This document shows positions 3,043-3,496 of a DNA stretch of 51,024 nt, piece by piece; position 1 is the first letter of the stretch, and every line of letters starts with the position of its first letter. This DNA is from a virus. Both the position numbers and the translations under genes were made by a program. The stretch is taken from the IMG/VR virus record IMGVR_UViG_3300030098_005111; one strand, 5' to 3'. Below the pieces are notes generated by a model that was not told the origin of the DNA, did no database searches, and worked only from the letters and a program-made list of their open reading frames with translations.

Positions 3043-3496
3043 TTCTTGGCATGTTTCACGCATAGAAAACAGGTTCGGTGGTGGTATTCCTGACGTATAT
3101 ATGTGCATTGATGGTAAATCATTATGGATTGAGCTAAAAGTTACAAAAAATTACAAGGTTTCGGTGTCTTCTCATCAAATTGCTTGGCATTTTGCACATT
3201 CTAAAGCAAATGGAGTCTCTTTCTTCTTAGTTAAGGCCCTCTCATCCTCGAACCTATATTTGTTTGACGGGGTTCGGGGTCGGGGGTTAGCGGAGCATGG
3301 CCTTCGGGTCGGGGTTCGGGATTCGGGGTCAAGTATTCGGGGTTCGGGGCCAAGAATTCGGGGCTCGGGGTCAAGCAGCACTGACCAGGATTCGGGTTCG
3401 GGATTAGGGATGGTGGTTCCTTGCAACTGGTCGGGTTCGGAGTATCCTGGACTGATTGAATATTTAAAAAATGGCTCTGGACCTTTGGGGGGTTAA
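2987..3496 (+). CDS. VRR-NUC-type (PD-(D/E)xK) nuclease with a Gly/Ser/Arg-rich C-terminal tail encoded by a G-run repeat island
   Basis: GIPDVYMCIDGKSLWIELKV...SSHQIAWH fits the GxPD...E-x-K...Q core of VRR-NUC. SD GAGG lies 6 nt upstream. The fold appears to end near residue ~90, and the remaining ~80 aa come from the TTCGGG repeat region, so the true C-terminus is uncertain. Confidence 0.55.
   Translation: MSQQPESLFWKNLKKHLPNSWHVSRIENRFGGGIPDVYMCIDGKSLWIELKVTKNYKVSVSSHQIAWHFAHSKANGVSFFLVKALSSSNLYLFDGVRGRGLAEHGLRVGVRDSGSSIRGSGPRIRGSGSSSTDQDSGSGLGMVVPCNWSGSEYPGLIEYLKNGSGPLGG
3266..3440 (+). repeat. G-run island A: (A/G)TTCGGG(G)/GTCGGGG units including three tandem 21-nt copies
   Basis: At least 15 runs of G3-5 on the + strand, e.g. 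ggggttcggggtcggggg and ttcgggattcggggtcaagta / ttcggggttcggggccaagaa / ttcggggctcggggtcaagca (3316..3378). Confidence 0.85.

What the first reader, a model, noticed from the sequence alone, without database searches (positions are those of the whole stretch)
3266..3440. G-quadruplex-grade TTCGGG repeat island fused in-frame to the VRR-NUC gene
This 175-nt stretch in an AT-rich genome has at least 15 G3-5 runs on the + strand, separated by 2-4 nt. It is built from (A/G)TTCGGG(G)/GTCGGGG units and includes three tandem 21-nt copies (3316..3378). It satisfies the G3+N1-7 quadruplex rule many times over. It extends the VRR-NUC ORF by ~80 aa of RGRG/SGS-type sequence (..VRGRGLAEHGLRVGVRDSGSSIRGSGPRIRGSGSSS..) after the nuclease fold seems complete. 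It also creates two spurious stop-free ORFs on the C-rich strand. The 21-nt period keeps the reading frame, so a real disordered RGG-like tail cannot be excluded. The same motif family occurs at only two other places that I could find (4753-4823 and 5511-5563), always with G on the + strand and always at boundaries between small-gene cassettes.
Basis: partly seen in the sequence, partly recalled or inferred. Interest (0 to 1): 0.65.

Follow-up and report, generated by a model that had tools for sequence, protein, structure and literature searches.

The report
Translated repeat loop, phage cis-site array
The G-rich TTCGGG island is real. It is translated as a floppy, length-variable loop inside a Holliday-junction-resolvase-like nuclease, and it is also the first of several same-strand short-repeat arrays that mark the variable gene-cassette region next to the DNA-packaging genes in relatives of the abundant HTVC023P-type marine phages.

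Summary
There are 15 G-runs in 3266-3440, and TTCGGG is 3-fold over-represented and concentrated in three + strand islands. The strict G3+N1-7 rule is met only once in island 1.

The island is translated. In 37 of 37 relatives the nuclease core and a conserved C-terminal strand and helix (VPCxWSG..GLxExL) stay in frame across 15 different repeat lengths. Synonymous codon turnover shows protein-level selection. AlphaFold puts the repeat in a disordered loop. The fold is Hjc/RecU-like, not VRR-NUC.

At the DNA level it is one member of a clade-wide family of TCGGG arrays: 128 on the + strand versus 3 on the - strand. The arrays occur only in the hypervariable cassette region between terS-nuclease and terL.

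Sister clades carry different heptamers at the same positions (CTGCGGC, GCTTGTG). G4 potential is therefore incidental, and a co-evolving sequence-specific binder is implied.

My best guess, inferred and not shown, is that these are multivalent TerS (pac-type) recognition arrays split by cassette insertions. Rival readings are operator arrays, iterons and recombination hotspots.

The parts
2455..3042 (+). terS, small terminase of the Pfam Terminase_2 (SPP1 G1P) type. It overlaps the nuclease start by 56 nt.
   Evidence: Pfam PF03592, E 4.6e-07, above the cut-off. It lies directly upstream of the nuclease in all TCGGG-clade and CTGCGGC-clade loci.
2987..3496 (+). PD-(D/E)XK nuclease of 169 aa, Hjc/RecU-like, with invariant E27, D36 and E49-x-K51.
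   Evidence: More than 200 homologues; alignment A2; AF2 model; Foldseek top hits are Hjc and RecU; Pfam Hjc at 18.1 bits, below the 21.1 cut-off.
3266..3440 (+). Island 1, a TTCGGG/GTCGGG array that includes 2.9 copies of a 21-nt unit at 3315-3375. Nucleotides about 3308-3412 encode the disordered Gly/Ser/Arg loop (residues 108-142).
   Evidence: The frame is kept in 37 of 37 loci across 15 length alleles. pLDDT is below 50 for residues 108-142.
3413..3472 (+). Codons for the conserved C-terminal beta-strand and helix (VVPCNWSGSEYPGLIEYLKN).
   Evidence: The invariant V, P, C, W, G and L positions show full synonymous codon turnover. pLDDT is 73-92. Related motifs occur in island-less homologues.
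3466..3505 (-). Hairpin GGCTCTGG(17 nt)CCAGAGCC followed by a T-run on the minus strand. It is the likely terminator of the leftward operon 4476-3571 and overlaps the end of the nuclease ORF.
   Evidence: Read from the sequence. The scan did not call it because its loop exceeds 8 nt. A variant is conserved in L055 and L056.
4727..4760 (+). Intrinsic terminator whose descending stem is the first TCGGG unit of island 2.
4753..4823 (+). Island 2, a non-coding TTCGGG array between the + gene 4526-4669 and the + genes 4979-5446.
5474..5497 (+). Intrinsic terminator after gene 5222-5446, directly upstream of island 3.
5511..5563 (+). Island 3, a non-coding array made of two copies of a 26-nt unit built from (A)TTCGGG/GTCGGG. 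It sits at a convergent gene junction.
   Evidence: (family D9).
3349..7522 (.). Hypervariable cassette region containing all three islands. Relatives that are 89-94% identical from 7522 onward (terL, portal) and about 75% identical up to 3349 share almost nothing in between.
   Evidence: blastn of L007, L055 and L056 against the window; sequence at the right boundary.
3426..3433 (+). ACTGGTYG octamer. One copy follows each island (3426, 4845, 5607). CCWGG sites also cluster in the flanks of the islands.
   Evidence: ACTGGTYG occurs 8 times against 1.8 expected. Seven of the 50 CCWGG sites in the window lie at 3385-5680, all within about 60 nt of an island boundary. The role of both motifs is unexplained.

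Best explanation
SHOWN. The 175-nt island does two things at once. (1) It is translated. It encodes a disordered Gly/Ser/Arg loop whose length varies hypervariably. The loop is inserted between the core of an Hjc/RecU-like PD-(D/E)XK nuclease and the nuclease's conserved last beta-strand and helix. (2) At the DNA level it is the first of a series of same-strand arrays with a 5-nt core (TCGGG; unit period 5-8 nt). In a whole clade of HTVC023P-related phages these arrays mark the hypervariable cassette region between terS-nuclease and terL and occur nowhere else. Sister clades have arrays of different heptamers at the same places. INFERRED. The arrays are multi-copy binding sites for a co-evolving, phage-encoded, sequence-specific DNA-binding protein. 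The most likely candidate is the ring-shaped SPP1-type small terminase encoded 224 nt upstream. Each flexibly tethered HTH domain would contact one short core. Avidity over 4-20 cores would give specificity. The uniform orientation would set the packaging direction towards terL. On this view the islands are pieces of a pac-type recognition region that insertions of small gene cassettes have split apart and partly duplicated. G-quadruplex potential is a by-product of the motif this clade happens to use.
For: Translation. The anchors LYLFDG and VPCxxxG are in the same frame with no stop in 37 of 37 loci, across 15 spacer lengths of 72-213 nt, all multiples of 3. Invariant residues use all synonymous codons. 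The AF2 model shows a disordered loop at 108-142 and a confident strand and helix at 146-162. Distant homologues without islands keep the C-terminal element. A close relative, P0001, differs by exactly one 21-nt unit. Array family. There are 128 + strand arrays against 3 - strand arrays in 357 kb of nuclease-centred loci, with genome GC from 36 to 55%, and 91% of spacers end in TC. None of the TCGGG type occurs in 845 kb around the DNA polymerase gene of 80 related contigs, or elsewhere in the window. Clade-specific motifs at the same positions. GCTTG(T/A)G occurs in HTVC027P, CTGCGGC in the L041-L051 clade, repeats carrying TTGAGAAT occur directly after terS and after the nuclease in HTVC023P, and TGGGCCG x8 occurs upstream of terL in DSL-LC04. 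Link to TerS. Arrays lie within 0.1-0.75 kb of terS in four clades. TerS belongs to the SPP1 G1P family, whose pac region carries direct repeats and whose single DNA-binding domain occludes 3-5 bp (PMC4737164). The putative recognition-helix segment of TerS differs between the motif clades. Cassette splitting. L056 carries a 547-nt cassette inserted exactly at the left edge of an island relative to L055. Homology with L007, L055 and L056 ends inside island 1. Homology breakpoints are enriched at islands, 30 observed against 14.8 +/- 3.9 expected.
Against: No binding, cleavage or genome-end data exist, so the identity of the binder is inferred only from position and analogy. Known pac sites are compact and single, whereas here there are 2-5 arrays spread over 2-4 kb. 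The covariation between TerS and motif is confounded by phylogeny, with only about 5 clades. In HTVC027P terS is inverted, and the arrays stay with the nuclease gene rather than with terS. The unit period varies from 5 to 8 nt, which excludes a rigid binder locked to the helical phase. SF6 TerS DNA-binding domains showed little sequence specificity in vitro. Some arrays abut leftward promoter-like sites or terminators, which fits a transcriptional role equally well. The breakpoint enrichment comes mainly from one orthologous island and is not made of independent events.
Confidence: 0.4

Rival explanations
1. Operator or insulator arrays. A small phage regulator binds the heptad arrays between transcription units to control or insulate cassette promoters and terminators. 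The model is the ribbon-helix-helix omega protein, which binds contiguous heptads at several promoters of one replicon.
For: The arrays are always intergenic, except for the nuclease loop. In the AT-rich members and the sister clades the period is 7 nt. In GC-rich relatives several arrays end 4-8 nt upstream of a leftward TTGACA-N18-TAnnnT promoter-like site. Intrinsic terminators flank the non-nuclease arrays: 29% have a + strand terminator upstream and 44% a - strand terminator downstream. A CTCGAG palindrome is 15-fold enriched within 150 nt to the right of arrays.
Against: No conserved regulator gene was identified next to the arrays. Orientation is uniform whatever the direction of local transcription. 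The positions relative to promoters are heterogeneous. The arrays are confined to the packaging-gene interval, although other promoter-rich regions exist.
Confidence: 0.2
2. Recombination or cassette-capture hotspots as the primary function. The repeated arrays would provide homology or fragile sites that drive exchange of small-gene cassettes between co-infecting phages. Analogues are T4-type PeSL elements and G-rich immunoglobulin switch regions.
For: The islands lie only inside the hyperplastic region 3349-7522. A cassette indel ends exactly at an island edge. Breakpoints are enriched at islands. Repeat copy number differs between near-identical genomes.
Against: The enrichment is modest, one-sided (28 right ends against 2 left ends) and largely due to one orthologous site. 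Many cassette boundaries, for example 4222 and 4450, are not at islands. Hotspot behaviour could be a consequence of protein binding or cutting rather than the selected function. This reading is not exclusive of the best explanation.
Confidence: 0.13
3. Replication origin or copy-control iterons. The arrays, plus an adjacent AT-rich stretch and in some lineages DnaA boxes, would form an origin embedded partly in a gene, as the lambda ori is embedded in the linker-coding part of gene O.
For: The 50 nt to the right of islands are 76-84% AT in AT-rich members. In L056 an array is followed by 47 AT-rich nt and four perfect DnaA boxes. L053 and L054 have 8-9 DnaA boxes in the same region. Supra-repeats of 21 and 26 nt are iteron-sized. 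The minimum of cumulative GC skew lies near 2 kb.
Against: There are no DnaA boxes in the window. The flanks are not AT-rich in GC-rich relatives. No initiator gene is adjacent. A much stronger iteron candidate exists at the window ends, at least 16 copies of a 36-bp unit. GC skew is confounded by gene orientation.
Confidence: 0.1
4. Functional G-quadruplex or R-loop element. The G-rich strand would fold or form R-loops to pause polymerases or mark boundaries.
For: G4Hunter reaches up to 2.16 in island 1. ViennaRNA predicts two G4s in the island 1 core, at -35.5 against -29.1 kcal/mol. GC-rich relatives carry (GGGTC)n arrays with 2-nt loops. The strand bias is absolute.
Against: The functionally equivalent arrays in sister clades (CTGCGGC, GCTTGTG, TTGAGAAT-type) cannot form G4s. 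The TC preceding the G-runs is conserved in 91% of spacers, which G4 folding does not require. Islands 2 and 3 barely pass G4 thresholds, and hairpins win in the predicted fold.
Confidence: 0.08
5. Polar Rho-dependent terminators. Minus-strand transcripts through the islands are C-rich and G-poor (CCCGA)n, a rut-like composition. They would stop antisense transcription into the + strand backbone genes while letting + strand transcripts pass.
For: The minus-strand RNA of island 1 would be 45% C and 19% G. Both leftward gene blocks in the window (4476-3571 and 6478-5707) are followed by an island just beyond their ends. This would explain the uniform orientation.
Against: The sister-clade motifs are not C-rich on the minus strand. 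The major convergent junction at 37.8-38.4 kb has no island. Islands 2 and 3 are only 53-71 nt long. The TC/GA conservation is left unexplained.
Confidence: 0.04
6. Neutral microsatellite expansion with no function. The motif would have been seeded from UUCG-loop terminators and tolerated in a permissive protein loop.
For: Copy number is hypervariable. Terminators of the form GGCC-TTCG-GGTC contain the motif. G-rich arrays lack stop codons, so read-through is harmless (L055-type tails).
Against: The core is conserved across genomes of 36-55% GC. The strand bias is 128 to 3. The arrays are restricted to one genomic interval. Sister clades show parallel arrays of different motifs at the same positions.
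Confidence: 0.05

Closest known systems
pac region of Bacillus phages SPP1 and SF6 (TerS G1P, Pfam Terminase_2)
   Same: The TerS family is the same. Sets of direct repeats lie in or next to terS. A ring of HTH domains is thought to bind by avidity, each domain covering 3-5 bp (PMC4737164).
   Different: The SPP1 pac region is one compact region of a few hundred bp, with three box types, spanning the terS promoter and start. Here there are 2-5 arrays of one 5-nt core over 2-4 kb, downstream of terS, one inside another gene, with cassettes between them. No binding or cleavage has been shown here.
Phage P1 pac site (from memory, not tested)
   Same: Clusters of a repeated hexanucleotide on both sides of the cleavage point are recognised by the packaging enzyme and lie within a packaging gene.
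   Different: P1 has a single site of about 160 bp. Its hexamers are Dam sites, and methylation controls cutting. Nothing comparable has been shown here, although CCWGG sites cluster near the islands.
Lambda ori iterons inside gene O (from memory)
   Same: A cis-acting repeat array lies inside a coding region and is translated as a flexible inter-domain linker, so one sequence carries a DNA signal and a tolerant peptide.
   Different: The lambda iterons are 19 bp long and bound by the product of the same gene, the O initiator. Here the gene is a nuclease, the units are 5-8 nt, and the binder is unknown.
Omega-protein heptad arrays of plasmid pSM19035, and ParG and ParR repeat arrays (from memory)
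   Same: Contiguous 7-bp repeats, in 7-10 copies, occur at several intergenic sites of one replicon and are bound cooperatively by a small protein.
   Different: The omega heptads occur in both orientations upstream of promoters, and the binder gene is known. Here orientation is uniform, the period drifts from 5 to 8 nt, and no RHH gene has been identified.
PeSL mobile regulatory cassettes in the hyperplastic regions of T4-type phages (from memory)
   Same: Short conserved non-coding elements flank small variable ORFs and coincide with recombination junctions in a plastic genome region.
   Different: PeSLs are an early promoter plus a stem-loop. The arrays here have no promoter consensus of their own and are tandem short repeats on one strand only.
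Hjc and RecU Holliday-junction resolvases
   Same: The protein has a PD-(D/E)XK core with E, D and ExK catalytic residues, and the best structural matches have probability 1.00.
   Different: Sequence similarity is below the Pfam threshold and TM scores are only 0.4-0.5. The 24-71-residue low-complexity loop insertion is not a feature of Hjc or RecU.
G-rich DR2 repeats in the herpes simplex virus 'a' sequence next to the pac1 and pac2 signals (from memory)
   Same: G-rich tandem repeats capable of forming G4 lie adjacent to the signals used by a terminase homologous to phage TerL.
   Different: This is a eukaryotic virus with 12-bp units at genome termini. Sister clades here use motifs that cannot form G4.

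Membership tests
Canonical G-quadruplex motif (four G3+ runs, loops of 1-7 nt) | At least 4 consecutive G3+ runs separated by 1-7 nt | tested here: met
   Met once in island 1 (3306-3328) and once in island 3 (5542-5563), and not in island 2. It is not met 'many times over'.
Canonical G-quadruplex motif (four G3+ runs, loops of 1-7 nt) | Actual quadruplex folding of the strand | not testable with these tools
   Only predictions are available: G4Hunter 2.16, 1.32 and 1.32 for the three islands, and ViennaRNA places a G4 in the minimum-energy fold of island 1 only.
Functional G4 element | G4 potential conserved wherever the element is conserved | tested here: not met
   The equivalent arrays in sister clades are CTGCGGC, GCTTGTG and TTGAGAAT-type repeats without G-runs.
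VRR-NUC (PF08774) | Significant match to the family profile | tested here: not met
   No VRR-NUC hit at E of 0.01 or better. The only Pfam hit is Hjc, PF01870, at 18.1 bits against a cut-off of 21.1.
PD-(D/E)XK nuclease superfamily | Catalytic E...PD...(D/E)xK residues in an alpha-beta core | tested here: met
   E27, P35-D36 and E49-L-K51 are invariant in 33 sequences. The core is modelled with pLDDT 87-92.
Hjc/RecU-type Holliday junction resolvase | Fold similarity to solved resolvases | tested here: met
   Foldseek against the PDB gives 2eo0, 1zp7, 4tkd, 2wcw and 1gef at the top, with probability 1.00, E of 1e-3 to 1e-2 and TMt of 0.47-0.53.
Hjc/RecU-type Holliday junction resolvase | Junction-specific cleavage as a dimer | not testable with these tools
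   This requires a biochemical assay.
pac site (TerS recognition region) | Located in or next to terS, and asymmetric | tested here: met
   The first array starts 224 nt after the terS stop codon. Arrays are 0.1-0.75 kb from terS in four clades and all are in one orientation.
pac site (TerS recognition region) | Bound by TerS, with packaging-series ends mapping nearby | not testable with these tools
   No binding data or virion read data are available.
pac site (TerS recognition region) | Single compact site | tested here: not met
   There are 2-5 arrays per genome over 2-4 kb.
Iteron-type replication origin | Iterons plus an AT-rich unwinding element plus (often) DnaA boxes, next to an initiator gene | tested here: inconclusive
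   An AT-rich right flank occurs only in AT-rich members. DnaA boxes occur in L056, L053 and L054 but not in the window. No initiator gene is adjacent.
Omega-type heptad operator arrays | Contiguous heptads at several intergenic sites | tested here: met
   The period is 7 in the window, L045 and HTVC027P, but 5-6 in GC-rich relatives.
Omega-type heptad operator arrays | Cognate small RHH or HTH regulator encoded nearby | tested here: inconclusive
   PHROGs gave no functional hit for the 10 small cassette proteins, and the cassettes are not conserved between relatives. The rest of the genome was not searched for regulators.
T4-type PeSL cassettes | The element contains an early promoter and a stem-loop | tested here: not met
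   The arrays have no promoter consensus of their own. Terminators are adjacent to only 29-44% of them.
Integron attC and attI | Imperfect inverted repeats recognised by a tyrosine integrase, with cassettes in one orientation | tested here: not met
   The arrays are direct repeats. No integrase is present in the locus. The cassettes carry genes on both strands.

The most novel reading that the evidence does not exclude
The arrays are the working parts of a cassette-capture system peculiar to this phage group. A packaging or resolvase complex (TerS plus the adjacent Hjc-like nuclease) binds and cuts at the clade-specific repeat arrays. The resulting ends recombine with foreign DNA, so small accessory genes are inserted between duplicated arrays. 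One array has been absorbed into the nuclease gene itself as a translated loop. This would be an integron-like gene-acquisition platform built on the pac machinery of a group reported as the most abundant in marine viromes.
Probability: 0.12. Interest if true: 0.85.

Novelty: new variant of a known kind. Interest (0 to 1): 0.6.

Why it matters
[quoted passage not shown] Nothing is known about their cis-acting DNA signals, and the two papers I checked do not mention these repeats.

A conserved, strand-specific, clade-specific array family next to the packaging genes is a concrete candidate for the pac signal or another key control site. It also gives a handle on why the terS-terL interval is a hotspot for accessory genes.

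The nuclease loop is a clean natural example of one sequence serving both as a DNA signal and as a tolerated, length-hypervariable protein linker.

For annotators there are practical consequences. The long ORF is real, the minus-strand ORFs are artefacts, and the gene is missing or mis-fused in GenBank records of relatives.

For G4 surveys this is a cautionary case: high G4 scores can be a by-product of a protein-binding repeat.

Tried and rejected
(1) Rfam (gathering thresholds) and ARAGORN over the whole window found nothing.

(2) Megablast of 2400-9400 against 50,697 phage records found no match. Only protein-level relatives exist.

(3) I considered that islands 2 and 3 might be decayed copies of the nuclease 3' end. 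They share only the octamer ACTGGTYG and nearby CCWGG sites, with no remnant of the VPC codons, so I rejected this as a coding relic. The shared octamer remains unexplained.

(4) A host Chi-like site is unlikely. The core is constant across genomes of 36-55% GC, which implies different hosts, while the motif changes with phage clade.

(5) A T7-type primase site (GGGTC) is unlikely. The conserved core is TCGGG rather than GGGTC in AT-rich members, and relatives encode an AEP-type primase.

(6) A CsrA-type GGA sponge RNA is rejected, because GC-rich relatives have no GGA in their arrays.

(7) DnaA boxes are absent from the window.

(8) An exact (TCGGG)4 scan of viral contigs returned at least 120 hits, many in prophage-type (isolate-genome) records, so it is not diagnostic of this clade.

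(9) The GCTCGAGC palindrome that accompanies arrays in GC-rich relatives is not near the window's islands.

(10) Literature searches for G4, packaging and heptamer pac repeats found no description of these arrays.
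Full report
1. WHAT IS IN THE SEQUENCE

The window is a complete, circularly closed phage genome of about 51 kb and 37% GC. A related contig, L005, bridges window position 51004 to position 47. Its large terminase is 58-63% identical to those of Pelagibacter phages HTVC023P and HTVC027P, phage 023Pt_psg01 and lake phage DSL-LC04.

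The stretch 3266-3440 contains 15 G3+ runs and no C3+ run. It has 78 G against 33 C and is 63% GC. TRF reports a 21-nt unit in 2.9 copies at 3315-3375.

TTCGGG occurs 29 times in the window, against 10.7 +/- 3.1 in dinucleotide-preserving shuffles (0 of 100 shuffles reach 29). Eighteen of these lie on the + strand in three islands: 3273-3402, 4754-4821 and 5520-5563.

One part is overstated. With loops of 1-7 nt there is only one four-run chain in island 1 (3306-3328), one in island 3 and none in island 2. G4Hunter reaches 1.5 or more only in island 1, plus an unrelated coding site at 22475-22518. ViennaRNA with quadruplex energies puts G-quartets in the minimum-energy fold of island 1 only.

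2. THE ISLAND IS TRANSLATED AND LIES INSIDE THE FOLD, NOT AFTER IT

ORF 2987-3496 (169 aa) overlaps the end of terS (2455-3042; Pfam Terminase_2) by 56 nt. It has more than 200 metagenomic homologues of 135-190 aa.

The alignment shows three parts:
- a conserved core up to LYLFDGxxGRGLAEHGLRVG
- a Gly/Ser/Arg-rich segment of very variable length
- an invariant G.G..VPC.WSG....GL.E.L block

I located the two flanking anchors independently in all three frames of 36 related loci and the window. They are in the same frame, without stops, in 37 of 37 cases. The 15 distinct spacer lengths range from 72 to 213 nt and are all multiples of three. The invariant V, P, C and L codons after the repeat use all their synonymous codons. 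The conservation is therefore at the protein level.

An AlphaFold2 model (pTM 0.71) gives a confident core, then helix 95-104, then a disordered segment at 108-142 (pLDDT below 50). After that come strand 146-150 and helix 153-162, with block-mean pLDDT of 73-92.

Distant homologues without any repeat still carry a comparable C-terminal element, for example RPMSIWQGD and GLVPGLYEG. The repeat is thus an expansion inside a surface loop of an otherwise complete protein.

A close relative, P0001 (99% identical over aligned positions), lacks exactly seven residues, which is one 21-nt unit.

The protein is not detectably VRR-NUC. Pfam gives only a sub-threshold Hjc hit. Foldseek ranks the archaeal Hjc and bacterial RecU Holliday-junction resolvases first. 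The catalytic residues E27, D36 and E49-x-K51 are invariant.

The two minus-strand ORFs across the island exist only because a run of C-rich repeats contains no stop codons.

3. THE ISLAND BELONGS TO A CLADE-WIDE, STRAND-SPECIFIC ARRAY FAMILY

All 40 related loci that encode the long nuclease have 1-5 clusters of [TC]CGGG, essentially all on the nuclease strand. The 16 loci with the repeat-less nuclease have none.

I counted arrays of at least four G3+ runs in 357 kb. There are 128 on the + strand and 3 on the - strand (82 and 3 distinct sequences). Of the spacers between G-runs, 91% end in TC.

The unit period drifts with genome GC content (36-55%):
- TCGGG (5 nt)
- GTCGGG (6 nt)
- ATTCGGG or GTTCGGG (7 nt)
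- TTTTCGGG (8 nt)
The 5-nt core stays the same throughout.

In 845 kb centred on the DNA polymerase gene of 80 related contigs there are six G-run arrays, none of the TCGGG type. In the window there are none outside 3.2-5.6 kb. The arrays are therefore specific to the interval between terS-nuclease and terL.

4. THAT INTERVAL IS A HYPERVARIABLE CASSETTE REGION

Contigs L055, L056 and L007 are 94%, 94% and 89% identical to the window from 7522 rightwards (terL, portal and so on). They are about 75% identical over terS and the nuclease up to 3349, which lies inside island 1. In between they are unrelated, apart from one 229-nt gene fragment.

The cassettes encode small proteins of unknown function on both strands.

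L056 differs from L055 by a 547-nt insertion. It contains a promoter-like region, two DnaA boxes, a 93-aa gene and a terminator. It sits exactly between the last conserved nuclease codons and the left edge of the next array. In L055-type genes the ORF simply runs on through that array into a non-conserved tail.

Homology breakpoints outside the nuclease gene are enriched within 50 nt of arrays: 30 observed against 14.8 +/- 3.9 expected, with a maximum of 27 in 1000 randomisations. However, 28 of the 30 are right ends of homology blocks and most concern one orthologous array, so they are not independent.

The contexts of the arrays vary. They occur at convergent, tandem and divergent junctions. 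Of the non-nuclease arrays, 29% have a + strand terminator just upstream and 44% a - strand terminator just downstream.

5. SISTER CLADES HAVE OTHER MOTIFS AT THE SAME PLACES

This is the key comparison.
- HTVC027P has arrays of GCTTG(T/A)G at the 3' end of its unannotated nuclease gene (L001 6287-6360). It has three more downstream at 6384-6420, 7179-7215 and 7502-7522, all on the + strand.
- The L041-L051 clade has CTGCGGC arrays at the nuclease 3' end and at two downstream sites.
- HTVC023P, where terS and the nuclease are 2 kb apart, has a 33-bp repeat in 2.9 copies 97 nt after terS. It also has a repeat of about 57 bp in 3 copies right after the nuclease. Both share TTGAGAAT.
- DSL-LC04 has TGGGCCG x8 just upstream of terL.
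- L053 and L054 have 8-9 DnaA boxes in the same region. L056 has six DnaA boxes in addition to its TCGGG arrays.

What is conserved, then, is a clade-specific short-repeat array at these positions on this strand. G-richness is not conserved. This argues against G4 folding or C-rich antisense RNA as the selected property. It argues for a sequence-specific binder that co-evolves with its sites.

6. MOST LIKELY MECHANISM (INFERRED)

The only conserved DNA-binding protein encoded beside the arrays is TerS. It belongs to the SPP1 G1P family. The pac region of that family contains sets of direct repeats in and around terS. Its ring of flexibly attached HTH domains is thought to recognise DNA through many weak contacts, each domain covering 3-5 bp (PMC4737164).

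The following features fit multivalent recognition by such a ring, with orientation fixing the packaging direction towards terL:
- a 5-nt core repeated 4-20 times
- loosely constrained spacing
- uniform orientation
- location 0.1-0.75 kb from terS in four clades

The putative recognition-helix segment of TerS differs between the motif clades. With about five clades, this cannot be separated from phylogeny.

I propose that an originally contiguous recognition region has been split and partly duplicated by insertions of accessory-gene cassettes. That would explain why the arrays flank the cassettes. I put about 0.4 on this. The translated-loop and array-family statements in sections 2-5 I hold at about 0.9.

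7. RIVALS

- Operator or insulator arrays for an unidentified regulator (0.2). Several arrays in GC-rich relatives abut a leftward TTGACA-N18 promoter-like site, and a CTCGAG palindrome is 15-fold enriched to their right.
- Recombination hotspots as the primary function (0.13, not exclusive of the best explanation).
- Iterons or a replication origin (0.1). Some lineages have AT-rich flanks and DnaA boxes, but the window has none, and it carries a far better iteron candidate at its ends.
- A functional G4 (0.08).
- Polar Rho terminators (0.04).
- Neutral microsatellites (0.05).
Section 5 weighs against the last three.

8. COMPARISON WITH KNOWN SYSTEMS AND NOVELTY

The element works most like a pac-type or operator-type direct-repeat array, but it fails the 'single compact site' feature of known pac sites. 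Its embedding in a coding loop recalls the lambda ori iterons in gene O (from memory). Its heptad form recalls the omega-binding arrays of pSM19035 (from memory). Its association with cassette boundaries recalls T4-type PeSLs (from memory).

I found no description of these arrays in the HTVC023P literature that I checked. I rate the finding as a new variant of a known kind, namely protein-binding repeat arrays. Its function is unresolved and no biochemical evidence exists.

9. WHAT REMAINS UNEXPLAINED

- Each of the window's three islands is followed by ACTGGTYG (8 occurrences against 1.8 expected). CCWGG sites cluster in their flanks (7 of the 50 sites lie at 3385-5680).
- In three motif clades the first array starts inside the nuclease loop, even where terS is inverted.
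- Breakpoints at arrays are almost all right ends of homology blocks.

Noticed in passing
window 100-452 and 50724-50968 (contiguous across the circular junction): There is a large array of at least 16 copies of a 36-bp iteron, consensus TGGCTCGCTC..(10)..TGTTTCTATC..(6). It is flanked by a 273-aa minus-strand ORF (464-1285) with a weak Transposase_20 (helix-hairpin-helix) match. L005 reads through the array, so the window is a circular assembly cut inside it. This is a candidate origin or centromere-like site.
   Followed up: partly
L001 6287-6360, 6384-6420, 7179-7215, 7502-7522; L045 6359-6420, 7134-7168, 7509-7547; L003 2951-3047 and 5400-5571; L002 11722-11777: Sister clades carry arrays of other short repeats at the equivalent positions, on the + strand. 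The motifs are GCTTG(T/A)G, CTGCGGC, TTGAGAAT-containing units of 33 and 57 bp, and TGGGCCG.
   Followed up: partly
L056 10567-10586 and 12488-12556; L053 and L054 (8-9 sites): Clusters of perfect DnaA boxes (TTATCCACA) lie in the intergenic spaces downstream of the nuclease gene in some relatives. In L056 an array is followed by 47 AT-rich nt and then four boxes, an origin-like layout. There are none in the window.
   Followed up: partly
L001 6001-6372 (HTVC027P, MN698241.1 16216-16587); L002 6382-7215 (DSL-LC04): The nuclease gene is not annotated in the HTVC027P record, where a minus-strand hypothetical gene overlaps its end. In DSL-LC04 its start lies under a CDS annotated as 'terminase small subunit'.
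   Followed up: partly
GC-rich relatives, e.g. L010 3100-3168, L017 3560-3627 and 7630-7689, L024 2020-2086, L032 4120-4188: A conserved leftward promoter-like site (TTGACA, about 18 nt, TAnnnT on the minus strand) ends 4-8 nt from the left edge of an array. This places the array where an upstream activator site would sit (read by eye).
   Followed up: no
GC-rich relatives, within 150 nt to the right of arrays: The palindrome (CCAG)GCTCGAGC(CTGG) is 15-fold enriched there, with 54 of 114 CTCGAG sites in 5.6% of the sequence. It is not found near the window's islands.
   Followed up: partly
window 3426, 4845, 5607 (+); CCWGG at 3385, 3446, 4866, 4883, 5507, 5620, 5676: Each island is followed by ACTGGTYG (8 in the window against 1.8 expected). 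Seven of the window's 50 CCWGG sites cluster around the islands. In island 1 the octamer doubles as the codons for N-W-S-G.
   Followed up: partly
window 38410-38787 (-), 38160-38405 (-), 37814-38167 (-): Three consecutive very basic small proteins are encoded here. The 125-aa one is built from tandem 30-nt and 33-nt repeats (KKTVKKTG.., GGVKKTGMNRGG x3, MRGGGMKPT x3). They could be DNA-condensing or internal virion proteins.
   Followed up: no
window 37095-37817 (+): A 240-aa proline-rich repeat protein (..PPMAPPVM.., QPVAPTPQ..) is encoded by tandem repeats of 21 and 15 nt at 37185-37426.
   Followed up: no
window 22470-22519: This is the only other site with G4Hunter of 1.5 or more. It encodes the Gly/Trp-rich N-terminus (MAIGWGRDGWSEGAWG) of a 221-aa ORF in the structural module and is not related to TTCGGG.
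   Followed up: yes
window 5689-5708 and 6045-6064: A 20-nt sequence, AAAAAAATGCCGGATA(A/G)TTT, is duplicated at 95% identity. The second copy is part of the minus-strand terminator 6075-6052. The first lies at the end of gene 5707-6012, without an obvious full hairpin.
   Followed up: no
window 7500-7600 and L007, L055, L056: The right edge of the variable region is a sharply conserved block that starts at TAGGTACTTAG and contains a terminator hairpin (window 7546-7577). It is shared at 89-94% identity by genomes whose upstream cassettes are unrelated.
   Followed up: partly
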